Source: a phage. Taken from it: DNA of 48,914 bases. Under the pieces are notes generated by a model, which was not told where the DNA came from, did not search any database, and saw nothing but the letters and a program-made list of their open reading frames with translations. The DNA lies in the sequence record PZ445533.1; one strand, given 5' to 3'. A program made the translations under genes and the position numbers. Position 1 is the first letter of the stretch. The number at the start of each line of letters is the position of its first letter. Positions 19,504 to 42,987 of the stretch are shown here, piece by piece.

Positions 19504-20118
19504 TTAATCATAGTGTGATGCATTTATAACCAAAACAGATGAAGCGGTGTAAATACCAACAGGTCCAGGAGTTTGTGCAACCTGCCTAGAAAAAGAGTAG
19601 ATCCCGTTACCATACGCGGCAGCTTGAGACTCAAAAATCATGAATCCACCTAAAGCCGGATTAGGAACAGAGTTTAATGCTGTCAGTGATGGCATTATGG
19701 CGCAAGGATAGCCCATGTTAACATCAAATGCGATCCCGCTTACGCCTACTTGCTTTGCATCTAGCGGCCTCATTTTTCCATGATAAACCATTTCACCATG
19801 AGCATTATAAAACGCTATGCCGTGACTACCTGGGGGAGTAACCATATTACTAAAAGCATAAACAATAACCTCACCCTGATTATCAGATCTATCAAGTCTT
19901 ATTGCGTGCCTTCCACCATTGTTAAATTGCGTGAATGATATGTATGATTTAGCGGTCAATCTAACAAAGAAAAAACATACCCTATCAACAGGAATTGACG
20001 AAGTAAAAACGGTTCCGGTATTAGCAGATATTACAGCCCGATCAATTAGATTAACTGGAGTGAAATCTGGACTTAACCATAACGATCCGTCTGATTTTTT
20101 TATACTCATCCCGTACAT
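19504..20118 (-). CDS. Hypothetical protein, third gene of cor operon
   Basis: 204 aa; GGTGA RBS; overlaps upstream gene end. Confidence 0.5.
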   Translation of the reverse strand: MYGMSIKKSDGSLWLSPDFTPVNLIDRAVISANTGTVFTSSIPVDRVCFFFVRLTAKSYISFTQFNNGGRHAIRLDRSDNQGEVIVYAFSNMVTPPGSHGIAFYNAHGEMVYHGKMRPLDAKQVGVSGIAFDVNMGYPCAIMPSLTALNSVPNPALGGFMIFESQAAAYGNGIYSFSRQVAQTPGPVGIYTASSVLVINASHYD

Positions 20119-20120
20119 TA

Positions 20121-20399
20121 TCACCCCCAAAAAGTATATATATATCTTGAATCAGATCCAGAAAGCCCACTCCATGTAACGGTGTCGCCACTCACCCCTA
20201 AGTTTGGTGCGCCAGGGTCGCCACCACGCCAGGAATTCATGCCAACATATATTGCTTTCAATGATTTACCTGGCGGCCTGTTTTGGTAAGTCTTGCTACC
20301 TGATGGCTGAGTGAATTTATCAAGGAAGAAAACAGGCGTTAAAAGTCCTGTAACTTCCCTTCCTCGATCGTCATATATTGCATAACCATATTGCGCCAT
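20121..20399 (-). CDS. Hypothetical protein
   Basis: 92 aa; TAATG overlap with cor-like gene. Confidence 0.5.
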   Translation of the reverse strand: MAQYGYAIYDDRGREVTGLLTPVFFLDKFTQPSGSKTYQNRPPGKSLKAIYVGMNSWRGGDPGAPNLGVSGDTVTWSGLSGSDSRYIYTFWG

Positions 20400-20674
20400 T
20401 AATTACACCTCAAATCAATAAATTTACTTTCATTTTGCCAACGGTTGATAAATTTAACTTCTTTATTGTCAACGCTCAACCTGTATTGCTTTTGGCTGAA
20501 TCTGTTTTCGCGGACTGCATTAATTTTGACTTCATGTAACCCGTTAACAGGGAATGTTTTAACGTTAAATTTTGCCGTGCAATCGATCTCCTTGAAGTTG
20601 CCAGTAGGCGACGCTGCGCATCCTGTCAGAGCGGCTACAGTGGCGATAACTGCGATTAACTTTTTCATCTTCAA
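20399..20674 (-). CDS. Lipoprotein, Cor-like superinfection exclusion candidate
   Basis: 91 aa; signal peptide plus lipobox LTGC; located next to J on opposite strand as cor is in T1/phi80-like phages; motif-type promoter cassette upstream. Confidence 0.55.
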   Translation of the reverse strand: MKMKKLIAVIATVAALTGCAASPTGNFKEIDCTAKFNVKTFPVNGLHEVKINAVRENRFSQKQYRLSVDNKEVKFINRWQNESKFIDLRCN

Positions 20675-20679
20675 TACTC

Positions 20680-20745
20680 CTTAGTTGTTGTTGGATGCAA
20701 CTATACACGATCTTGGGCATCGCGTTTAGCAAAAAGTGCTATTTG
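20680..20745 (-). promoter_or_regulatory. Motif cassette upstream of cor-like operon
   Basis: Minus-strand reading AAATAGCACTTTTTGCTAAA, imperfect hairpin, TATAGT, CATCCAACAACAAC, RBS AAGGAG. Confidence 0.45.
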
Positions 20746-20749
20746 TTAT

Positions 20750-21110
20750 TTTTTGTTTTCCGGTGTTATCGAATTTAAGACGGCGTAAATTTAGCGCAAA
20801 ATTTAGACAACATAAGATCAATAAACAATCAATAAAATAGATATATACATATAAAATCAATAGTTTATTTATTTATGTATGTATATTTGTTTTTTCTTGT
20901 TATCTGCGTTTCTTGTGGTTTTGGTTGTTTGTGGTGATTTTTCTTTCTGAGTATCTGTATGTGCCATCATTCATGTGTATGTATATAATCCGGCGTATCT
21001 GAGAGAACAGGGGAACAAGAAAAATAACGCATATTAATCATTAACTTATGAGTCAAATCTGTTTTCTTGCCATCTGAGAACATTTAGAAAACAGAAAAAA
21101 CAAAACAGCT
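20750..21110. repeat. AT-rich divergent control region A with alternating purine-pyrimidine tracts and short iteron-like repeats
   Basis: ATCAATA x3, AAATTTAG x2, TGTATGTATAT tracts; homologous to 41200-41480. Confidence 0.5.
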
Positions 21111-21111
21111 A

Positions 21112-21139
21112 TTGACTAAATCAACCAAATGGCTACAAT
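21112..21139 (+). promoter_or_regulatory. Sigma70-like promoter (TTGACT-16-TACAAT) for recombination operon
   Basis: Read directly: TTGACT 21112-21117, 16-nt spacer, TACAAT 21134-21139, about 30 nt upstream of ATG 21170. Confidence 0.55.
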
Positions 21140-21169
21140 GCACGCATAAAGCAACAAGGAGCATTAAAG

Positions 21170-26593: not shown

Positions 26594-27523
26594 TTATAGC
26601 AGTGATTCGGGCTTGTAGAGTTTTCTTTCTACTCCCTGTTTAAAATTATCGTTAACAGGCATCATTATGTCAAGCCCTCTTTCCTCTGCCGCGATTATCA
26701 CATCACGATCATCTTTCCGGCAGACTACGCGCATTCTTCTTTCTCCTTTATATCTATGCGCAACCATTTCAAGATTTGAAGGAGTAAAACAGGCCCACAC
26801 CTCTTGACCAGTTGATAAATGAACATGCTGAGAATCAACCCAATCAAGGCACAAATAGATCGTCTTATCTGTACTACCTGTTTTAACAACAGATCCTCGC
26901 GTGTAGTCGCGAGCTAAAAACCAATCCTTTCCATCCTCATCAATGAAAAGCACGTTACACATTTCATCATCCAGCCCGTCATCATGCACCAGGTGACAAG
27001 GTAGCGCGTGAATGTATCGACCATCCTTGACGCCGCAATCATAATGACAATCTTCCGGCGGATATATCCCCTCATAAACGCTTAAAGGTGTGCGATCGAA
27101 TTTTAATGTTTTTGCCATCACTTTTTCGCAACATTCATGACTTGCCTGTTTCCCGAACGAGTAACCAGAAGAACGCGAAGCGCGTTTGTTTGCTCTGATC
27201 CTGTAATCTTGTGGCACTTTTCCGAGGAAGCGGCCCAAAATGTTGATGGCCTCGCTGTAAGGTTCGCCAGTTAATTTCATTAACCAACCGATCCCCGTGT
27301 CGTTGCCGCACACGTTGCAGATCGCGCCGCCGTCGCCCTCTTCATTTAGCTTATCAGTCCATCTAAAACGATCCTTACCGCCGCAGTGTGGGCAAGGTTG
27401 ATGCTTTTTGTTGAAAACATCGCTATGCAGTCCGCAAATGCTTTGTAGTGCTTCACGCCATAACCCCTTCATATATGGCAAAACATCTTCTTTCTGATAG
27501 GTCATAAAGTTTTCAGTATTCAT
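26594..27523 (-). CDS. DNA primase (zinc-binding domain)
   Basis: CPHCGG...CNVCG zinc-finger motif; start ATG 27523 chosen because it follows a terminator hairpin and GAGG RBS. Confidence 0.6.
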   Translation of the reverse strand: MNTENFMTYQKEDVLPYMKGLWREALQSICGLHSDVFNKKHQPCPHCGGKDRFRWTDKLNEEGDGGAICNVCGNDTGIGWLMKLTGEPYSEAINILGRFLGKVPQDYRIRANKRASRSSGYSFGKQASHECCEKVMAKTLKFDRTPLSVYEGIYPPEDCHYDCGVKDGRYIHALPCHLVHDDGLDDEMCNVLFIDEDGKDWFLARDYTRGSVVKTGSTDKTIYLCLDWVDSQHVHLSTGQEVWACFTPSNLEMVAHRYKGERRMRVVCRKDDRDVIIAAEERGLDIMMPVNDNFKQGVERKLYKPESLL

Positions 27524-27530
27524 GGCAAAC

Positions 27531-27570
27531 CTCAATAAAAAAGCCCAGCAAATATTATCATTTCGCTGGG
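27531..27570 (-). terminator. Hairpin + T-run between HTH gene and primase start
   Basis: Minus-strand GCCCAGCGAAATGATAATATTTGCTGGGC followed by TTTTTTATT, then RBS GAGG and ATG 27523. Confidence 0.5.
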
Positions 27571-27578
27571 CCTTATCA

Positions 27579-28055
27579 TTAGCTATTCGTGCTGTTATCA
27601 CCTTTGTAGAATCTTCCGCCTGGTTCGTAGTCTGAATTTTTGACTACGCGCAACATTTCGTATTTGTCGCAACGGGTAGTAAGAGGCTTGCCGTTAGAAT
27701 CAAACCGCAGATCTGGACGACAAAATGATGCGCGGTATCCTTTGCATCCATTATATTTGTAGTCGTTATGCACCTTTTGTGCTCCAGCGGCTGAAATCAT
27801 ACCACGCTTTCGCCATTGGTTAACGACTTGCTGAGATACGCGCAGACGTCGAGCCATAGCAGGAACACCGCCATAATACTCGATCAGAATATCCAGGCGA
27901 GATTTCAGGCTTGCTTTTACCTCATCTCGCAGGATAAGGAATCCGGTTCGGTGTTTTCGTGGCTTTTTGTCTTTACCTCGTCGCGTTCCGTTGTTACCGT
28001 TAATAGTGCGCTTGTCGATCTCACCCGTAGATACTGCAATTCGTGCATCTTTCAT
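27579..28055 (-). CDS. Cro/YdaS-like HTH DNA-binding protein with C-terminal Cys cluster
   Basis: GGVPAMARRLRVSQQVVNQWRKRG HTH signature; basic N-terminus; GAGGTGA RBS. Confidence 0.55.
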   Translation of the reverse strand: MKDARIAVSTGEIDKRTINGNNGTRRGKDKKPRKHRTGFLILRDEVKASLKSRLDILIEYYGGVPAMARRLRVSQQVVNQWRKRGMISAAGAQKVHNDYKYNGCKGYRASFCRPDLRFDSNGKPLTTRCDKYEMLRVVKNSDYEPGGRFYKGDNSTNS

Positions 28056-28065
28056 CTAGTCACCT

Positions 28066-28130
28066 CATAGCATTTTTTGTTAAAACAGTTTATTGTAATG
28101 AGTCTATTATATACTCCAAATGGCATTTTT
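28066..28130 (+). promoter_or_regulatory. Motif copy in divergent region between HTH gene and helicase
   Basis: ATAGCATTTTTTGTTAAAAC then TATTAT 22 nt after TTGTTA, no hairpin; about 60 nt upstream of helicase ATG. Confidence 0.4.
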
Positions 28131-28142
28131 TAAAGGTTTAAG

Positions 28143-30140
28143 ATGATTCCAAATATCGAAAAACAAATATCAGCATTAGGCGAGGCAGTAATAAAAAGCA
28201 TCCAAGAGCGATTCACGGTTGGCAATATAGTGCCTTATCCTTATCAGTGCGTTGCGTATGCAGAGATCGCAAAGCGCATGAAAAACTATGAGCATCCTTT
28301 CTTTGTTAAGGCTTCTGTATCGGCTGGCAAAACATTGATGTTTGCGATGGTTGCGGCGCAATGCCGCAAAATGGGATTGAAAATGATGGTCCTTGCTCGC
28401 CAGGCTGAAATTGTTGATCAGGATTCGGAAGAGATCAGCAATCTTGGCGTGCCAAACTCAATCTATTGCGCCGGACTGAAAACAAAAAGCGCATACTTTC
28501 CGATCGTAGTCGGTTCTGAGGGCACTGTAGTAAACGGATTGTTTAAGTCGTTAGGTGATTATGTTCCGCACGTTATCGGTATTGATGAATGTCACCAGGT
28601 GGATTGGGAGGATCTCGCGGACGCGATAGAAAATAATGAATCTTACCAGCAGATGACCACTAAGAAGGATTTGCCAGTACTGATTGGAGAAGAACAGCAA
28701 TTTGATTCCAATGGCGATCCAATGTTCGGAACAGGGCGCACACAGTACACCGTAATAATAATGGAAATGATGCGTAGGTGTCGCGAGGCATACGGGCACG
28801 AATTGCGAATATTCGGCATGACTGGATCTGAGTTTCGCGGCGTGGTTCCAATACTGGTTGAAGATAAGAACAAAAAGGGATTCTGGCGTGAGCAGGTGAC
28901 TAACATAGACACAAACTACTTAATCAAATTCGGTTCGGTAGTGCCAACAAACTTCGGCGACGTAGGCGACCTGGGTTATGACCTTTCAGAGTTCGAAGCC
29001 AGTAGCGAGGATGGCGTTTCAGACTTTGACGCTAAAACATTGCGCAAGATGGAAGAAAAGATCCATCAAGACGCAACAATGACACAGAAAATCATGGCTA
29101 AAGTCCATGAGATATGCAAAGACAGGAACGGAGTTTTAGTTACATGCGCAGGGGAAAGGCACTGCAAGGAGGCCGCCGCCGCACTGCCGCCAGGCGTTGA
29201 ATACAGGATCATAACTGGCAAGACTGGAGATAATCAGCGTAAAGAGTGGCTGAGGGAGGCATACGAGGGAAAAGTAAAATACATCTTCCAGGTACAGGCG
29301 CTTACCACTGGCGTTAACGTTCCGTTTTGGGATACTTCTGTAATACTGAGAAAGATAGGATCTCTAACATTGCTTATCCAGCTTTTGGGGCGCGGCATGC
29401 GACTGCTTAAGCAATGGCACATTGAGCAGGGATTCAAGAAAAAAGATCATCTTGTATTGGATTTTGCAGGTACTATGGATGAGTTAGGTGATTTGTATTT
29501 CGATCCAATCCTTGAGCAAGCGCAATTCCAAAAGAGATTTACAAACGGGAAAGAGCCTAAGACTTGTCCGATATGTGGAACGCTAAACAGCTTTTACGCT
29601 CGCCGATGTATGCACGTAGACGATAACGGGAAACGATGCGAGCATTTTTGGACTTACAGAATTTGCGAGGACCAGGTAGATCCGAGAACAAAAAAGATAA
29701 TCAAGCGCGGTTGCGGAACAAAAAACGACGTAGTGGCGAGAGTTTGCCGTTGTTGCGATATTTCTCTTGTCGATCCTAACGAGAAGTTAAGCGGTAAGCA
29801 CTACACCAAAAACGATTGGTGCAACGTTAAATATTTCCGCGTTGATATGACGAAAAACCAGAAAGGAATTGTTTTTTGCTATGAGCTTGAGGCCAACGGC
29901 GACACGTTCAAGGCATACGAAAGATTTTTCCCTGAGTCAGAAAGCAACATTTGCCGGACGATATGGAGAAAAATAGCATTGCAGCACATACCGGATCGCA
30001 AGATTGCTGGTATGGTGGCGAGCTATAGAAATGCGCGTAAAATAATGTCATACGCTCATCACATCATGCCGCCTGTACGCGTAACGCATCGCAAAAACGG
30101 CAAAGGTGAGGATAACATTGCAAAACGGGAGTTTGTTTAA
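28143..30140 (+). CDS. SF2 DNA helicase with C-terminal zinc-ribbon region
   Basis: Walker A ASVSAGKT, DECH box, TGS motif, QLLGRGMR motif VI; Cys-rich C-terminus. Confidence 0.85.
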   Translation: MIPNIEKQISALGEAVIKSIQERFTVGNIVPYPYQCVAYAEIAKRMKNYEHPFFVKASVSAGKTLMFAMVAAQCRKMGLKMMVLARQAEIVDQDSEEISNLGVPNSIYCAGLKTKSAYFPIVVGSEGTVVNGLFKSLGDYVPHVIGIDECHQVDWEDLADAIENNESYQQMTTKKDLPVLIGEEQQFDSNGDPMFGTGRTQYTVIIMEMMRRCREAYGHELRIFGMTGSEFRGVVPILVEDKNKKGFWREQVTNIDTNYLIKFGSVVPTNFGDVGDLGYDLSEFEASSEDGVSDFDAKTLRKMEEKIHQDATMTQKIMAKVHEICKDRNGVLVTCAGERHCKEAAAALPPGVEYRIITGKTGDNQRKEWLREAYEGKVKYIFQVQALTTGVNVPFWDTSVILRKIGSLTLLIQLLGRGMRLLKQWHIEQGFKKKDHLVLDFAGTMDELGDLYFDPILEQAQFQKRFTNGKEPKTCPICGTLNSFYARRCMHVDDNGKRCEHFWTYRICEDQVDPRTKKIIKRGCGTKNDVVARVCRCCDISLVDPNEKLSGKHYTKNDWCNVKYFRVDMTKNQKGIVFCYELEANGDTFKAYERFFPESESNICRTIWRKIALQHIPDRKIAGMVASYRNARKIMSYAHHIMPPVRVTHRKNGKGEDNIAKREFV

Positions 30141-35079: not shown

Positions 35080-35401
35080 CGCCCATCTCCCCTATTCTAG
35101 CTATATCCCTGATCCAGTCGTTGCGCATACCATCCAGGCTATACAATTCGAATCCGAAAGGCCGCTTTGACGATCCTTTGGACCAGTATTTTCCGCAGAC
35201 TCCATCTATATAACCAGCCGTCATCATTCTTGCGCAAAATTCCTTAGATGCAAGGCTGGCGAACATTCGCGGCGTAAGTCCGGCGGCCCGTGCGAGCCGC
35301 TCACATTCTCTATGCTGATAGATAAATTTGGCTATGTGCTGCCTGTTAAACCAATCGTATGACTCACACCATTTATACAGATCAAGCAAAAACATAATCA
35401 T
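35006..35401 (-). CDS. Hypothetical protein coupled to P-loop ATPase
   Basis: 131 aa; ATGA overlap with upstream 526-aa gene. Confidence 0.55.
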   Translation of the reverse strand: MIMFLLDLYKWCESYDWFNRQHIAKFIYQHRECERLARAAGLTPRMFASLASKEFCARMMTAGYIDGVCGKYWSKGSSKRPFGFELYSLDGMRNDWIRDIARIGEMGDDELFQAKANRQDLEALRRKFNIT

Positions 35402-36978
35402 CCCAGCAGTATTGGATTGACAAAAATAACACCATTAATCACACAAACATAATTTCTTTCTTCCAGCATTGGCAGTAAGTGCCCTTCTATCCTTTTCATT
35501 ACGCCAGCCTGACCAACGAAAGGTTTTACCTTTCTCGCTGATTCGTACAGGGCGCGGATATTCAGAATCCCTTTATTAGCCTTGCCGTGCCTCGTGATCA
35601 ATTCAATCAATTTACCCATTTCAGCATCATCACCAGCATAACCAGAAGCATTGGCGGCGCTAATGTATGTTTTGCTCAATTCCTGAAACATGATCAACGC
35701 CTCTTGCATTGTTTCCACGTCGATCTCTTTCGACTTCTGCGGGTATCCGGCAGGATTAAACCAGTTACGGATAACATGCAGGACGGAAGCAAGCCTGATC
35801 ACCTGTTTATCCATTTTACCCAGCGCACCGCGTAACATTGTATGAGAATACTTTCCTCCGTCTGCAAGATGCGGTTCCATATCCTGGCGAGCAATGTTGA
35901 GCACTCGCATAGCTGAACGGCTTATTTTCAGCGATATATTTGATTCGCTCATGATGTTATGCACCAATTGATAATATTGGGCTTTCAATTCAGAATCCAC
36001 CGCCTCATAGGTAGAATCACCATTTTCATCAATGAATGAGCGACGGCCTAAGAATGATTCCTCTCGGACCAACAAAAAACGCTCACTAACACCGATGCCT
36101 CGCGATCCAGCGTCCATGATTCCGCTTATCGTTTCATCCTGGGCTATGACGCTCATACATCCAAGCGCGCGAAAACTCATATTATTGTCAGCATTAGCGC
36201 GGGCAATTGATACGTGACCATTATCCCACGCCTTAAGCACTAACTCACTGTTAGTCTTCCTTTCGCTATTTGCATAGGTCAAGCCTAACAGACTGTTAAT
36301 ACTTGTTGCTTCATCAGATATTACGGCAAAGTTACCTTGCTTGTTGTTGATTTTCGCCAAGCCTTCTGGAGTTGTATCTGAAACAGGAAAAGTTATATCA
36401 CACATTTTTTCCAGCTTTTCCTCCAGATCCTCTTTTTCCTGGTATAGAGATTCCATATCAGCGCCGGATCTTTCGCTTTTCATCTCCTTTGCAAGACCTG
36501 CCAGCTTTGCCTGTATTTTCTTTCTTTCCTTGCGGCGTTGCTCGTTGATCTTCTCAACTTCCGCAATCATCGGAGCAATAGCCATGCTGTTGATCGCAGA
36601 TTTACCAGTTGACGGCGGCTGGCTTGTAACGACGTAAAGCGCAGTCGGCTGATCGGTTCCGTGATAGTCAACCGTAAAGCGTCCAAGCATAGCGGCAGAA
36701 ATGCAGCCGATAAAGTGCATGTAAGCCGATGATTCAGGGAATTGAACGGATCGCGCAATGCTGCGTGATAACTTGCCGACAACATCAATATCATTACCAA
36801 GAGAAATAACGGGGTAGCGATCGTGACCGCTATTCACATCCTTTACGTCGCCCCAAAAGCTGGACGACTGGCGATAGCCGTTAGCCTGAATTGATACGCG
36901 AACTGGCGAAAGGTTCTGGCTTTCAGCCATAGCGATTATTTGTTGTGGAGTTAATTTGTTCGTTTCTAATGAAAACAT
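35398..36978 (-). CDS. P-loop NTPase of unknown function (deviant Walker A PPSTGKS, Walker B VISDEA)
   Basis: 526 aa; SF3-helicase-like Walker A variant, Walker B hhhhDE about 90 aa downstream with charged coiled insert; first gene behind motif cassette. Confidence 0.5.
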   Translation of the reverse strand: MFSLETNKLTPQQIIAMAESQNLSPVRVSIQANGYRQSSSFWGDVKDVNSGHDRYPVISLGNDIDVVGKLSRSIARSVQFPESSAYMHFIGCISAAMLGRFTVDYHGTDQPTALYVVTSQPPSTGKSAINSMAIAPMIAEVEKINEQRRKERKKIQAKLAGLAKEMKSERSGADMESLYQEKEDLEEKLEKMCDITFPVSDTTPEGLAKINNKQGNFAVISDEATSINSLLGLTYANSERKTNSELVLKAWDNGHVSIARANADNNMSFRALGCMSVIAQDETISGIMDAGSRGIGVSERFLLVREESFLGRRSFIDENGDSTYEAVDSELKAQYYQLVHNIMSESNISLKISRSAMRVLNIARQDMEPHLADGGKYSHTMLRGALGKMDKQVIRLASVLHVIRNWFNPAGYPQKSKEIDVETMQEALIMFQELSKTYISAANASGYAGDDAEMGKLIELITRHGKANKGILNIRALYESARKVKPFVGQAGVMKRIEGHLLPMLEERNYVCVINGVIFVNPILLG

Positions 36979-40867: not shown

Positions 40868-40874
40868 TTACTAT

Positions 40875-40946
40875 CTCCTGAGCGGTTCGTTTCGATGTGT
40901 GTAATGTACCCGATCAGGCGGCCTGATTTTTAACAAAAAGTGCTAT
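40875..40946 (-). promoter_or_regulatory. Motif cassette at head of leftward small-gene operon
   Basis: Minus-strand motif, hairpin ATCAGGCCGCCTGAT, TACATT, CATCGAAACGAACC, RBS AGGAG. Confidence 0.5.
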
Positions 40947-40949
40947 TTG

Positions 40950-41485
40950 ACGGTTAGCACCAGGATTGTGATCGAAATAATCAAAAGTAATCATTCGTAA
41001 TCAAATCACGTCAAAATGATGATTGCCTTTGCAAATTTGATGAGAAAAGTAATCACGTTTAATCATTGGTTGCAGGGGAGATAGTGAAACCCTCCACTCT
41101 TGCCTCACTTTTCCGCCTGGCTGTCAGTGGTTGTTATGTTCCGTTCCCGCCTGTTCTTTTGTTGACCTTCCGCAAAATACGATAACAAAAAATAACAAAC
41201 AATACCTATATAATACATTGAAAAATAAGGATTATTTATTTATATGTATCTATATATTCTCTTTTGTTATCTTGGTTATTGTGGTATTTGGTGGGGGTAT
41301 ATAGTTTTTGTGTATCTGTATGTGTGTATGGGTATGTAGGGGCATATATATCTATATGGCACTTTCCGCGAGAAAACTTCGATAACAGGCAATGATAACA
41401 TTGATTTATAAGGAAAAATAACGCCCATATTGTTATTGTGCCACCATATAAAATTGATAAAACACGCGGGAACAAGAAAAAACAG
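40950..41485. repeat. AT-rich divergent control region B, homologous to region A, with (G)TAATCA iteron-like repeats
   Basis: Five TAATCA copies 40975-41075; shared blocks TTATTTATTTAT, GTATCTGTATGTG, GGGAACAAGAAAAA with region A. Confidence 0.5.
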
Positions 41486-41514
41486 TTGACACATTAAATA
41501 GCATTATTGATAAT
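41486..41514 (+). promoter_or_regulatory. Sigma70-like promoter (TTGACA-17-GATAAT) for rightward operon
   Basis: TTGACA 41486-41491, 17-nt spacer, GATAAT 41509-41514, RBS AGGAGG and ATG 41544 downstream. Confidence 0.6.
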
Positions 41515-41543
41515 GCCGACACCTAACAACCAGGAGGTAGAAA

Positions 41544-42008
41544 ATGAGCGAGCAATCATTCACTGACACGCTGCGCCGTGCAGCTATTATGCTGGCTAAT
41601 GGCGAGGAAGAGACGATCAAGATTCCTGACGCGTATTTGCAGGTCCACATGTTCGGCAAGAAGTCGGCAAGCAATCCGGCGGCCTACATTCGCCAGATCA
41701 TGAGTCGAGTGCCAGAAGTCGCCGAGCGGGGGCGCGTATCCGTTACCCGTGGCGTTTACGGGCCGGAAGATGAAAACTTCGGTAGCACTTTCTACGAGGT
41801 GCGGATTGTTGAAGGCCGTCGCAAGGTTTACAACAAAGAGGCACTGGAAAGGGCAGTGCGCCAGGCTAAGCGCAAGGTTGCAGAGGCGATCATTGATATG
41901 TCACCAAACCTGGCAAACTATGCGCCGGAAGAGTACGAAACATTATCAAAGGCCGTCGCTGACTTTCACGCGATGATCAAAAAAACTTTCCTGGAGGATG
42001 AGCAATGA
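41544..42008 (+). CDS. Hypothetical protein, first gene of rightward operon
   Basis: 154 aa; AGGAGG RBS; canonical sigma70-like promoter about 30 bp upstream. Confidence 0.6.
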   Translation: MSEQSFTDTLRRAAIMLANGEEETIKIPDAYLQVHMFGKKSASNPAAYIRQIMSRVPEVAERGRVSVTRGVYGPEDENFGSTFYEVRIVEGRRKVYNKEALERAVRQAKRKVAEAIIDMSPNLANYAPEEYETLSKAVADFHAMIKKTFLEDEQ

Positions 42009-42346: not shown

Positions 42347-42574
42347 ATGGAAAGTTTAATCATCCAGAAGAAAATGAAGTGCGTCAGTGTAGCGCCAGGT
42401 TGCGGCTTTATGTTCACGGTGGGAAATATCTACTCCGCGCAGAAGATGAGAACATCAACCGGATCGTTTTACGTCAATAATAATCAGGGATTCCGCATGT
42501 TCCTGAACGGTCAAAGTGGCAACGAAATTTGCGCTTACGCCGACCTTATCGCAACCTTTGAGGAAGTGAAATAA
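42347..42574 (+). CDS. Hypothetical protein
   Basis: 75 aa from ATG 42347 with GAGGGG RBS downstream of motif cassette. Confidence 0.45.
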   Translation: MESLIIQKKMKCVSVAPGCGFMFTVGNIYSAQKMRTSTGSFYVNNNQGFRMFLNGQSGNEICAYADLIATFEEVK

Positions 42575-42987
42575 TGGATGACTGCATGCCGTTTCCTGGA
42601 TATAGAAATAAAGATGGTTACGGTCAGGTTTGCATAAATGGTGTAGTTGTTGGTGCTCACGGGTTAGCATATTGCAGAGCTAACAACCTTTCACTTAATG
42701 ATATACGTGGAATGGTTGTAAGGCATAGGTGTGATAATCCGCCGTGCTGCAATCCTGATCATTTGGAGATAGGAACGCAAAGGGATAACGTTATTGATTG
42801 CATAAAGCGAGGAAGGTTTAAAAGTAATGCTGGTGTTAATAATCCAAGAGCAAAATTGAATTACGACACAGCAGAAGAGATTCGCAAAGAGTACGCTAGC
42901 GGCGTAGTGTCTATGGGGGCGCTAGCTGAGAAATACATGGTTGGTAAAAGCACAATAAAAAGAGTTATTGACCGGAGCATTTGGTGA
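42574..42987 (+). CDS. HNH homing endonuclease
   Basis: HRCDNPPCCNPDHLEIGTQRDN HNH motif with Cys pairs; free-standing between small genes. Confidence 0.75.
   Translation: MDDCMPFPGYRNKDGYGQVCINGVVVGAHGLAYCRANNLSLNDIRGMVVRHRCDNPPCCNPDHLEIGTQRDNVIDCIKRGRFKSNAGVNNPRAKLNYDTAEEIRKEYASGVVSMGALAEKYMVGKSTIKRVIDRSIW

What the first reader, a model, noticed from the sequence alone, without database searches (positions are those of the whole stretch)
20750..21169. AT-rich divergent control region A, homologous to region B
Between the cor-like operon (-) and the recombination module (+). Contains ATCAATA x3 and AAATTTAG x2 short repeats, TGTATGTATAT tracts and shared sequence blocks with region B (TTATTTATTTAT, CTTGTTATCT, GTATCTGTATGTG, GGGAACAAGAAAAA), followed by TTGACT-16-TACAAT promoter at 21112-21139. 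Duplication of a control region at two divergent junctions suggests coordinated early regulation or two origins.
Basis: seen in the sequence. Interest (0 to 1): 0.45.

Follow-up and report, generated by a model that had tools for sequence, protein, structure and literature searches.

The report
Paired origin-like elements in T1-like phage
Region A and its distant twin B are real, family-conserved copies of a non-coding element (the two easiest-to-melt DNA stretches in this T1-like phage genome, each surrounded by short repeated protein-binding-type words and followed by a strong early promoter), which makes them the best current candidates for the still-unknown replication origins of T1-like phages, although a purely transcriptional control role is not excluded.

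Summary

The window is a complete Drexlerviridae (T1-like) genome. The A/B pair recurs in most Tempevirinae checked and in T1 itself.

Each copy has this anatomy:
- An AT-rich core, partly palindromic. The two cores are the two least stable duplex segments of the genome (z 4-5).
- Short GnnAACA words in a two-fold symmetric layout around the core (45 observed, 7.1 expected).
- A GT-rich tract, then about 120 nt downstream a consensus sigma-70 promoter, one of only about three in such phages.

The element is non-coding, has no conserved RNA structure, no Rfam match and no DnaA boxes.

My best reading (about 0.4) is an iteron-plus-unwinding-element replication origin present twice, as in SPP1 oriL/oriR or P4 ori/crr. 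The phage encodes a P4-alpha-type primase and an MCM-like helicase. Relatives carry P4's own iteron core, GTGAACA.

The main rival (about 0.3) is a shared upstream control region for the early promoters.

No binding protein was identified and no experiment exists. The element is not described in the accessible literature, and the TLS reannotation paper reports finding no origin.

The parts
20700..20745 (-). Leftward promoter-type element of region A. It is one copy of the family-wide 21-nt repeat (reads aaATAGCACTTTTTGCTAAA on the minus strand, 20725-20745), followed 21 nt later by the -10-like hexamer TATAGT (20700-20705). It drives the Cor/membrane-protein operon.
   Evidence: The repeat family is described for TLS in PMC11447400.
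20754..20770 (-). Outer-left pair of GnnAACA sites in inverted orientation: TGTTTTC at 20754-20760 and TGTTATC at 20764-20770.
   Evidence: The position is conserved in the alignment.
20782..20806 (+). Left flanking repeat GGCGTAAATTTAG / CGCAAAATTTAG. It is the counterpart of the conserved CCGGCGTAAAAT motif of relatives and a direct repeat of 20990-20999.
   Evidence: (families D4 and D6).
20795..20963 (+). Block homologous to region B (41171-41324). It comprises an A-rich half, a centre, a T-rich half and a GT-rich tract.
   Evidence: z = 24; 70% identity over 140 nt. Conserved in relatives.
20806..20812 (+). Inner-left GnnAACA site (GACAACA).
20824..20901 (.). AT-rich imperfect palindrome, the core of the element. 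Arms are 20824-20856 and 20869-20901. It contains the least stable 50-nt duplex stretch of A (20837-20886) and an IHF-consensus match at its centre (20855-20867).
   Evidence: I1; z 4.5-5.0; dyad z 5.6.
20898..20904 (-). Inner-right GnnAACA site, inverted (TGTTATC).
20905..20965 (+). GT-rich tract (TTGTGGTTTTGGTTGTTTGTGGTG...), present on the same side in A, in B and in relatives.
20990..21017 (+). Right flanking repeat CCGGCGTATC (20990-20999) followed by the outer-right pair of sites: GAGAACA at 21003-21009 and GGGAACA at 21011-21017.
   Evidence: (D4/D6).
21060..21093 (.). Promoter-proximal sites upstream of the -35 hexamer: TGTTTTC (21060-21066, inverted), GAGAACA (21076-21082) and GAAAACA (21087-21093).
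21112..21139 (+). Consensus-type sigma-70 promoter TTGACT-16-TACAAT for the exoVIII-Erf-SSB operon. It is conserved in position in TLS (published as P51), T1, haarsle and W011D.
40929..40949 (-). Region B: leftward copy of the 21-nt repeat, with its -10-like hexamer 22 nt downstream on the minus strand.
40950..41130 (.). Sub-segment found only in B, rich in TAATCA / GATGATTG words. It matches in position the segment where the T1 and TLS records begin (pac end). It is absent from A.
   Evidence: The match is positional and by word enrichment only, not by alignment.
41171..41324 (+). Region B copy of the A/B block. The least stable 50-nt stretch of the whole genome is 41207-41256. GATAACA (41181, +) and TGTTATC (41265, inverted) bracket the core.
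41381..41474 (+). Region B right-hand sites: GATAACA at 41381 and 41394, and GGGAACA at 41468.
41486..41514 (+). Region B consensus sigma-70 promoter TTGACA-17-GATAAT for the rightward early gene cluster. It is the counterpart of TLS P01.
26594..27601 (-). Candidate trans factor, inferred link only: primase homologous to the N-terminal primase domain of P4 alpha.
35398..36978 (-). Candidate trans factor, inferred link only: DUF3987 protein with a predicted MCM-like AAA+ helicase fold and a C-terminal unit that looks like a winged helix.

Best explanation
Region A, and its paralogue B, is a cis-acting element of the replication-origin type.

Proposed mechanism:
1. A phage-encoded initiator or helicase-loading protein binds the symmetric array of short GnnAACA sites that bracket the AT-rich core.
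2. The core is the easiest place in the genome to melt and serves as the DNA unwinding element.
3. The phage's own MCM-like helicase and P4-alpha-type primase are loaded there.
4. Transcription from the adjacent strong early sigma-70 promoter may help opening.
5. The element exists twice, about 20 kb apart, either as two origins or as an origin plus a cis-acting partner.

Shown here: the homology, the family-wide conservation, the site enrichment and layout, the minimal duplex stability, the absence of coding or RNA-structure signal, and the nature of the phage replication proteins.

Inferred, not shown: that any protein binds these sites, that melting or initiation happens here, and which of the two copies (or both) is active.
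For: 1. A and B are homologous well beyond composition: z = 24 and E = 2e-8.
2. The pair is ancient and maintained. It is found in 8 of 10 Tempevirinae pairs tested, with scores of 43-90 against about 22 +/- 2.5. It is also found in TLS (68% over 123 nt) and in T1 (74.7% over 91 nt, E = 2e-9). T1-A matches T1-B better than any orthologue, and W011D-B best matches its own A, so the two copies drift in parallel within a lineage.
3. The cores of A and B are the two least stable duplex segments of the genome at 50-, 100- and 200-nt windows, z 4.1-5.0.
4. GnnAACA sites are enriched. GATAACA occurs 6 times in A+B against 0.2 expected. Over ten regions there are 45 sites against 7.1 +/- 2.7 (maximum 16) in dinucleotide shuffles of those same regions.
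5. The layout is conserved and two-fold symmetric: two inverted sites, one direct site, the core, one inverted site, two direct sites.
6. Lineages have their own variants at the same positions: GATAACA in the window, GTGAACA in TLS and W011D, GTGTAACA / GATTAACA in T1.
7. The region is non-coding, RNAalifold finds 0 pairs and Rfam finds nothing.
8. The phage has its own initiation-type machinery. The primase is homologous to P4 alpha residues 20-263, E = 7e-17. The DUF3987 protein folds like MCM helicases, Foldseek E = 4e-6, model pLDDT 89.
9. There are precedents for the architecture and for duplication. P4 ori and crr share the iteron TGTTCACC, whose core GTGAACA is identical to the sites in the relatives, arranged around an AT-rich stretch. 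SPP1 oriL and oriR are each repeats plus an AT-rich DUE (PMC6316719).
10. No origin has been identified for T1-like phages. The TLS reannotation paper found no iterons elsewhere (PMC11447400), and the SU57 paper found no oriC-like site (PMC7718038).
Against: - There is no experimental evidence of any kind for initiation, melting or protein binding at A or B.
- The binding protein is unidentified. The Cro-like HTH next to the primase has a Cro fold, not the P4 origin-binding fold. Its likely operator AAATGGCATTT occurs only at 28118-28128, not in A or B.
- The window has no detectable homologue of P4 alpha's helicase or origin-binding domain.
- The sites are short and degenerate (GnnAACA). The palindrome is not significant in all copies: TLS-B, L012, L014 and L019 fail.
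- GATC sites are not clustered, with one each in A and B (read from the sequence). There are no DnaA boxes, although the latter fits a host-initiator-independent phage.
- The tight, conserved coupling to a consensus early promoter about 120 nt downstream fits a transcriptional role equally well.
- GC skew follows transcription direction and gives no independent origin signal.
Confidence: 0.4

Rival explanations
1. A and B are a shared upstream control region for the two main early promoters. A phage or host DNA-binding protein would bind the GnnAACA sites, and nucleoid proteins would bind the AT core, to activate or later shut off the rightward sigma-70 promoters of A and B together. This would be analogous to lambda OL/OR being read by the same repressors. 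The AT core would act as an architectural or UP-like element.
For: - Each element sits at a similar distance, about 120 nt, upstream of one of only about three consensus sigma-70 promoters in such phages.
- The promoter and the element are conserved together and in the same orientation in TLS, T1, haarsle and W011D.
- Extra sites lie 20-50 nt upstream of the -35 hexamer in A, in B and in T1-B, where GATTAACAC occurs three times.
- The phage encodes a Cro-fold regulator.
- An IHF consensus lies at the centre of A.
Against: - No site overlaps the -35 or -10 hexamers, so there is no classical operator geometry.
- The conserved core lies 150-300 nt upstream, far beyond UP-element or class I activator positions.
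- The third sigma-70 junction (28056-28142) has no such block and no sites, so the block is not a general accessory of early promoters.
- The Cro-like protein's candidate operator is absent from A and B.
- IHF sites are absent from all B copies and from TLS. A T1-A match lies away from the core.
- There is no A-tract phasing that would indicate intrinsic curvature.
Confidence: 0.3
2. The A/B block is a packaging-related or recombination-related signal. It would be a pac or secondary pac site, or a conserved linker that promotes exchange of gene modules, and not an origin or regulator.
For: - The T1 record places coordinate 1, the start of its 2.8-kb terminal redundancy, inside its region B. 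The TLS record start and many relatives' record ends also fall in B.
- Many relatives lose homology with the window at about 41295, inside the B block, which marks a mosaic breakpoint.
- Two records start inside A.
Against: - The T1 and TLS record starts fall in a separate left sub-segment of B that A lacks. That segment aligns between T1 and TLS but is distinct from the A/B block.
- A is 20 kb away from it, and no second pac is known for T1.
- Record starts of permuted assemblies are arbitrary and tend to fall in AT-rich or repeated DNA.
- A pure recombination linker would not explain the symmetric site layout or the lineage-specific parallel change.
Confidence: 0.08
3. The element encodes a small protein or a structured non-coding RNA.
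For: - Some GenBank annotators small hypothetical ORFs here.
- -10-like hexamers abound in the AT core.
Against: - The small ORFs are not preserved. Orthologues carry stops and identities sit at nucleotide-drift level.
- RNAalifold finds 0 consensus pairs in 15 diverse copies.
- Rfam finds nothing at gathering thresholds.
- No internal promoter prediction recurs in orthologues.
Confidence: 0.04
4. The resemblance is a neutral relic of an old duplication, or AT-rich filler with no function of its own.
For: Sequence identity is low (about 70%) and much of the block is low-complexity.
Against: - Neutral non-coding DNA would not stay alignable between paralogues across subfamilies whose exonuclease proteins are only about 61% identical.
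- It would not keep a fixed site layout.
- It would not remain the two global minima of duplex stability.
Confidence: 0.04

Closest known systems
Bacillus phage SPP1 oriL / oriR
   Same: - Two separated elements in a virulent pac-type siphophage genome.
- The two have a similar organisation of short repeats plus an AT-rich unwinding element, and both are bound by one phage initiator.
- One of them lies in a long intergenic region bracketed by transcription signals (PMC6316719).
   Different: - SPP1 oriL lies inside the initiator gene. Here both copies are intergenic and each is tied to an early promoter.
- The SPP1 initiator (gp38), loader (gp39) and DnaB-type helicase (gp40) are a different protein set. 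Here the proteins are a P4-alpha-type primase and an MCM-like helicase.
- No binding data exist here. Homology to gp38 was not tested.
Satellite phage P4 ori and crr (alpha protein iterons)
   Same: - Two distant cis regions share short iterons in both orientations around an AT-rich stretch.
- The iteron core GTGAACA is the very word found at the equivalent sites of TLS, W011D and other relatives.
- The window's primase is homologous to the primase domain of P4 alpha.
   Different: - The window's own sites are GATAACA / GAGAACA / GGGAACA, not TGTTCACC.
- There is no homologue of alpha's SF3 helicase or its C-terminal origin-binding domain.
- The P4 core is shorter and has no adjacent consensus early promoter pair.
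- crr is a tandem 120-bp duplication, which is not seen here.
Iteron-plus-DUE origins of plasmids and lambdoid phages
   Same: Multiple short repeats next to an AT-rich, easily melted segment. For lambda, T7 and T4 there is also activation by nearby transcription (the latter is from general knowledge).
   Different: - The sites here are only 7 nt and degenerate, set in a dyad-symmetric layout and not a tandem array.
- There are no DnaA boxes.
- The element does not lie inside an initiator gene.
Lambda OL/PL and OR/PR paired operator regions
   Same: Homologous control sequences at two early promoters of one phage, potentially read by one regulator. A Cro-fold protein is encoded.
   Different: - The sites do not overlap the promoter hexamers.
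- The conserved core lies 150-300 nt upstream.
- The Cro-like protein's probable operator is elsewhere.
The 21-nt direct repeats of TLS and T1-like phages (aaATAGCACnnnTTGnTAAAA)
   Same: A and B each begin, on the left, with one leftward-facing copy.
   Different: This repeat is a genome-wide element with about 17 copies in the window and is not what makes A and B homologous. The A/B block is a separate, two-copy element.

Membership tests
Iteron + DNA-unwinding-element replication origin (generic) | Several copies of a short repeat clustered in the element | tested here: met
   - There are 8 GnnAACA sites in A and 5 in B, against about 0.6 expected in each.
- Across ten regions there are 45 against 7.1 +/- 2.7 in dinucleotide shuffles.
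Iteron + DNA-unwinding-element replication origin (generic) | Adjacent AT-rich segment of minimal duplex stability | tested here: met
   The A and B cores are the two least stable stretches of the genome at all three window sizes, z 4.1-5.0.
Iteron + DNA-unwinding-element replication origin (generic) | Specific binding of a cognate initiator to the repeats | not testable with these tools
   No binder was identified. The Cro-like HTH and the MCM-like DUF3987 protein are only candidates.
Iteron + DNA-unwinding-element replication origin (generic) | Replication initiates there, or the element confers replication in cis | not testable with these tools
   This needs marker-frequency analysis or an origin-plasmid assay. 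No such data were found in the literature searched.
P4 ori/crr system | Type 1 iteron TGTTCACC present in both cis regions | tested here: not met
   The window's A and B have GATAACA / GAGAACA / GGGAACA and no copy of GTGAACA, P4's 7-nt core. That core is present at the equivalent sites in TLS, W011D and others, so it is met only in relatives.
P4 ori/crr system | Two separated cis regions sharing the iterons | tested here: met
   A and B lie about 20 kb apart with the same site family and a homologous core.
P4 ori/crr system | Alpha-type multifunctional protein (primase + SF3 helicase + C-terminal origin-binding domain) | tested here: not met
   Only the primase domain has a homologue, E = 7e-17. 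Nothing in the window matches D5_N / DUF5906 / Pox_D5.
SPP1 oriL/oriR type | Two elements of similar organisation (repeats + AT-rich DUE) | tested here: met
SPP1 oriL/oriR type | gp38-type origin-binding protein encoded | not tested
   No search with SPP1 gp38 was made. Pfam and PHROG scans of 20 window proteins in all returned no initiator family.
Lambda-type paired operators (OL/OR) | Operator sites overlapping the -35 / -10 of the regulated promoters | tested here: not met
   No GnnAACA site lies within 21112-21139 or 41486-41514. The nearest sites lie upstream of the -35 hexamer.
Lambda-type paired operators (OL/OR) | Cognate Cro/CI-type regulator encoded | tested here: inconclusive
   A Cro-fold protein exists at 27579-28055. 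Its only perfect candidate palindrome is at 28118-28128, not in A or B.
21-nt direct repeat family of T1-like phages | Match to aaATAGCACnnnTTGnTAAAA, intergenic, in the direction of transcription | tested here: met
   The copies at 20725-20745 and 40929-40949 read on the minus strand towards the leftward genes. There are 21 matches in the window against 3.1 expected. The consensus comes from PMC11447400. This applies only to the left edge of A and B, not to the A/B block.
pac site | Coincides with the packaging start of the archetype phages | tested here: not met
   For region A and the A/B block this is not met. The T1 and TLS record starts fall in a sub-segment found only in B (window 40950-41130) that A lacks.

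The most novel reading that the evidence does not exclude
T1-like phages replicate from a bipartite, P4-like pair of cis elements (A and B acting as ori plus a crr-like partner). The pair would be read by a 'split alpha' machinery: a stand-alone P4-alpha-type primase plus an MCM-like DUF3987 helicase whose C-terminal winged-helix-like unit recognises the GTGAACA-family heptamers. This would tie the replication system of a classic virulent coliphage family to that of satellite P4, and would identify DUF3987 proteins as origin-recognising MCM-type helicases in bacteria.
Probability: 0.12. Interest if true: 0.75.

Novelty: new member of a known kind. Interest (0 to 1): 0.5.

Why it matters
T1 is one of the founding model phages, and Drexlerviridae are very common in phage collections and in laboratory contaminations. 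Even so, their replication origin and early regulatory logic are unknown. The TLS reannotation paper reports finding no origin and lists the function of the 21-nt intergenic repeat among its open questions (PMC11447400).

This work gives two precisely delimited candidate elements of about 280 bp. Each has defined sites that can be mutated, cloned or used as bait. The origin question therefore becomes directly testable. The same elements are useful landmarks for engineering these phages and for annotating them.

If the elements prove to be regulatory only, they still define a conserved two-locus control module attached to two of the few host-type promoters of the family.

Tried and rejected
- **Rfam.** A scan of the whole window at gathering thresholds found nothing.
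- **Consensus RNA structure.** RNAalifold on 15 diverse copies gave 0 pairs. The dyad symmetry is significant in many copies but not all, so a conserved hairpin or cruciform is rejected as the essential feature.
- **Small ORFs.** They are not conserved.
- **DnaA boxes.** None in any of 13 copies.
- **IHF.** A consensus lies at the centre of A in the window, L008 and L019. It is absent from all B copies and from TLS, and a T1-A match lies away from the core, so it is not a defining feature.
- **A-tract phasing.** Vector strengths are at most 0.3, so there is no evidence of intrinsic curvature.
- **Internal sigma-70 promoter.** GTGCCA-17-TATAAT at 20961-20989 is not conserved in orthologues.
- **Cro-like HTH as a P4-type origin binder.** Its fold is Cro-like, not winged-helix, and its candidate operator is absent from A and B.
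- **Covariation of the HTH with iteron type.** Abandoned, because the sites drift around one family consensus and do not form clean specificity classes.
- **P4 alpha helicase and origin-binding homologues.** None found by BLASTP, tblastn or hhalign.
- **PDB sequence search with the DUF3987 protein.** No hit. The fold search was needed.
- **Literature searches.** Searches for T1 origin or transcript mapping found nothing relevant. One preprint proved to be about T5. The P4 review was not held, so the P4 iteron was checked on the P4 genome itself.
- **GC skew.** It tracks transcription direction only.
- **Anchoring B on its downstream gene.** This failed with only 2 loci, so the upstream gene was used instead.
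Full report
**What the window is.** The 48.9-kb window is a complete genome of a T1-like siphophage (Drexlerviridae, Tempevirinae). Region A with its flanks is 99% identical to Escherichia phages ityhuna, tonn, JK16 and swan01. The annotation of tonn and family scans give the context:
- the tail fibre gene, then a leftward Cor / membrane-protein operon (19504-20674);
- region A;
- a rightward exonuclease VIII - Erf - SSB operon from 21170.

The central claim is homology with a second AT-rich junction, region B at 40868-41544, and it is confirmed. A 20795-20963 aligns with B 41171-41324 with score 83, against 23.0 +/- 2.5 for dinucleotide-preserving shuffles, z = 24. BLASTN gives E = 2e-8. This is not an effect of AT content.

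**What is not specific to A and B.** The shared block at the left edge (CAAAAAGTGCTATTTG) recurs 21 times in the window against 3.1 expected. It is the 21-nt direct repeat aaATAGCACnnnTTGnTAAAA already described for TLS, whose function its authors list as an open question (PMC11447400). A and B each carry one leftward-facing copy.

I noticed in passing that 12 of about 17 true copies have a -10-like hexamer exactly 22 nt after TTGnTA, and 2 more at 21 nt. Many are then followed by a conserved leader, CATCGAAACGAAC. This argues that these repeats are unusual promoters.

[quoted passage not shown] P51 sits upstream of the exonuclease gene and corresponds to the rightward promoter of A. P01 corresponds to that of B. 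The A promoter TTGACT-16-TAnAAT is conserved in position in TLS, T1, haarsle and W011D, and it is the only prediction that recurs. In TLS the element follows a plus-strand gene and terminator, so divergent transcription is not essential to it.

**Anatomy of the A/B element.** I collected 43 orthologues of A and 43 loci for B from viral contigs, together with the T1 and TLS reference records. The alignments and site maps show one architecture, from left to right:
1. two inverted sites of the form TGTTnnC;
2. a GGCGTAAAT-type motif;
3. an A-rich half containing one direct GnnAACA site;
4. an extremely AT-rich centre;
5. a T-rich half containing one inverted site;
6. a GT-rich tract of about 60 nt;
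7. a second GGCGTAAAT-type motif;
8. two direct GnnAACA sites;
9. further sites, and about 120 nt later the sigma-70 promoter.

The site layout is two-fold symmetric about the core. Site enrichment survives a strict control: 45 observed against 7.1 +/- 2.7 (maximum 16) in dinucleotide shuffles of the same ten regions. The exact word GATAACA occurs 6 times in A+B against 10 times in the other 48 kb.

Lineages have their own variants at the same positions: GATAACA in the window, GTGAACA in TLS and W011D, and GTGTAACA and GATTAACA in T1. In T1-B, GATTAACAC stands three times in tandem 20 nt upstream of TTGACA.

**Physical properties.** The cores of A (20837-20886) and B (41207-41256) are the two least stable duplex segments of the whole genome at 50-, 100- and 200-nt windows, z 4.1-5.0.

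Dyad symmetry of the core exceeds shuffles in WIN-A (z 5.6), WIN-B (4.2), T1-A (4.2) and others. It does not in TLS-B, L012, L014 or L019. What is conserved is therefore a symmetric layout, not a base-paired structure.

**Evolution.** The A/B pair is detectable in 8 of 10 Tempevirinae pairs tested, in TLS and in T1. Within Tempevirinae, A copies cluster with A and B copies with B, so the duplication is old. Yet T1-A matches T1-B better than any other A, and W011D-B best matches its own A. Parallel change of this kind is what a shared trans-acting reader, or gene conversion, would produce.

**Exclusions.**
- No Rfam family matches.
- There is no consensus RNA structure.
- The small ORFs are not conserved.
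- There are no DnaA boxes and no helical phasing of A-tracts.
- IHF consensus sites are sporadic. One lies exactly at the centre of the window's A, 20855-20867, and none in any B copy.

**Region B has an extra part.** The T1 record annotates its first 2800 bp as the terminal redundancy, so coordinate 1, the packaging start, lies inside T1's region B. The TLS record start also lies there. The TLS authors place pac from restriction mapping plus a P22-like AGATTT motif, and an AGATTT lies about 30 nt inside the record start. Many relatives' records also start or end in B.

These starts fall in a left sub-segment that aligns between T1 and TLS (35 against 17 +/- 2.3). The window's counterpart, 40950-41130, cannot be aligned with either but shares a TGATT/AATCA enrichment of 7 per 186 nt against 0.95 genome-wide. 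A lacks this sub-segment. The A/B block itself is therefore not the pac site.

**Replication machinery and the P4 lead.** The phage encodes:
- a primase with a zinc ribbon of the P4-alpha / T7-gp4 type (26594-27601, minus strand);
- a Cro/YdaS-like HTH protein whose gene overlaps the primase start (27579-28055);
- an SF2 helicase (28143-30140);
- a DUF3987 protein labelled 'helicase' by PHROGs (35398-36978).

I recalled that P4's alpha protein binds the iteron TGTTCACC in two separate regions, ori and crr, and I tested this on the P4 genome. The record annotates 6 type 1 repeats in ori and 10 in crr. Their sequence is TGTTCACC, in both orientations, bracketing an AT-rich stretch. The core GTGAACA is the same word found at the equivalent sites of TLS-type phages.

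The window's primase is homologous to alpha residues 20-263, E = 7e-17. However, alpha's helicase and origin-binding domains have no detectable counterpart in the window.

The Cro-like protein has a Cro fold and not P4's winged-helix domain (model pLDDT 85.8). Its probable operator, the palindrome AAATGGCATTT, occurs only in its own promoter region at 28118-28128.

The DUF3987 protein folds like MCM-family AAA+ helicases (pLDDT 89.2; Foldseek E down to 4e-6). It ends in a helix-helix-strand-strand unit that looks like a winged helix. That makes it a candidate origin reader, but this is inference only.

**Interpretation.** The following fit a replication-origin-type element present twice:
- minimal duplex stability;
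- flanking symmetric arrays of short, lineage-tuned sites;
- a neighbouring strong early promoter;
- family-wide conservation without coding or RNA signal;
- phage-encoded primase and helicase;
- absence of host DnaA boxes.

The two verified precedents for such duplication are SPP1 oriL/oriR (PMC6316719) and P4 ori/crr. I give this reading about 0.4.

The main rival, at about 0.3, is a shared upstream control region for the two early promoters. It is favoured by the strict coupling to those promoters and by the promoter-proximal sites. It is weakened by the large distance of the core from the promoters, by the lack of operator geometry, and by the absence of the block at the third sigma-70 junction.

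The two roles are not mutually exclusive. Packaging or recombination roles, an RNA or peptide product, and neutral relic status are each unlikely, for the reasons given under the rival explanations.

**Novelty.** The accessible literature on T1-like phages describes the 21-nt repeats, the few sigma-70 promoters and the pac region. It does not describe this paired element, and two papers report finding no origin. The kind of element is well known. The instance appears to be undescribed, and it makes an open question testable.

Noticed in passing
Window, about 17 copies: 1566, 6209, 9964, 20742, 26505, 28067, 30556, 31627, 34888, 37050, 37724, 39641, 40946, 42274, 43681, 44640, 45987: The published 21-nt repeat aaATAGCACnnnTTGnTAAAA is followed by a -10-like hexamer at a fixed spacing: 22 nt after TTGnTA in 12 copies and 21 nt in 2 more. 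A GC-rich hairpin often lies in the spacer, and many copies continue with a conserved leader CATCGAAACGAAC before the ribosome-binding site. This suggests unusual promoters with a -35-like element displaced by half a helical turn, probably needing a phage factor. The TLS paper leaves their function open.
   Followed up: partly
Window 40950-41130: This sub-segment of region B is absent from A and is rich in TAATCA / GATGATTG words (TGATT/AATCA 7 per 186 nt against 0.95 genome-wide). It matches in position the segment where the T1 record (start of the annotated 2.8-kb terminal redundancy) and the TLS record begin. It is therefore a candidate pac region about 7.4 kb upstream of the terminase genes. 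It cannot be aligned with the T1 or TLS segments.
   Followed up: partly
Window 35398-36978 (minus strand): The DUF3987 protein, called 'helicase' only by PHROGs, has a confident predicted structure (pLDDT 89). Its best PDB matches are MCM2-7 and archaeal MCM subunits (Foldseek E 4e-6 to 1e-3, although TM is only about 0.35). It ends in a unit that looks like a winged helix (about residues 471-526). There is no sequence hit in the PDB and no similarity to P4 alpha.
   Followed up: partly
Window 27579-28055 (minus strand) and 28118-28128: The Cro-fold regulator has a basic disordered N-terminus, and its gene overlaps the primase start by 23 nt. Its own promoter region contains a perfect palindrome, AAATGGCATTT, which is unique in the genome and also present in the published TLS promoter P57. 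This is a likely autoregulatory operator.
   Followed up: partly
Window about 41295: Many close relatives that are about 99% identical in region A (tonn, swan01, SECphi27 and others) match region B at only about 85% and lose homology at about 41295, inside the B block. A different set of phages (AV105, JK16, atuna) continues at 98-99%. A mosaic recombination breakpoint therefore lies within the element, and the genes downstream of B are highly variable.
   Followed up: no
GenBank MN158217.1 (BEC3) and MN158216.1 (BEK26), relative to window 20880 and 20728: Two related genome records begin inside region A, one at the centre of the AT core and one at the 21-nt repeat. This is most likely an assembly break at AT-rich or repeated DNA and not a physical end.
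   Followed up: no
Phage collection hits: About 18 records named 'Campylobacter phage' with host Campylobacter jejuni (for example MG065675) match this E. coli T1-like region at about 74% over its whole length. These records look like Drexlerviridae coliphages and may be mislabelled or contaminants.
   Followed up: no
Window 42574-42987: An HNH / His-Me homing-endonuclease-like gene with a C-terminal HTH lies in the variable early gene cluster to the right of region B.
   Followed up: no
Window 40913-40930: A GC-rich inverted repeat followed by a T run (gatcaggcggcctgattttt) reads as a terminator on the plus strand, although the neighbouring genes are on the minus strand. It lies in the spacer between the 21-nt repeat of B and its -10-like hexamer, like the hairpins in other copies of that repeat.
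   Followed up: no
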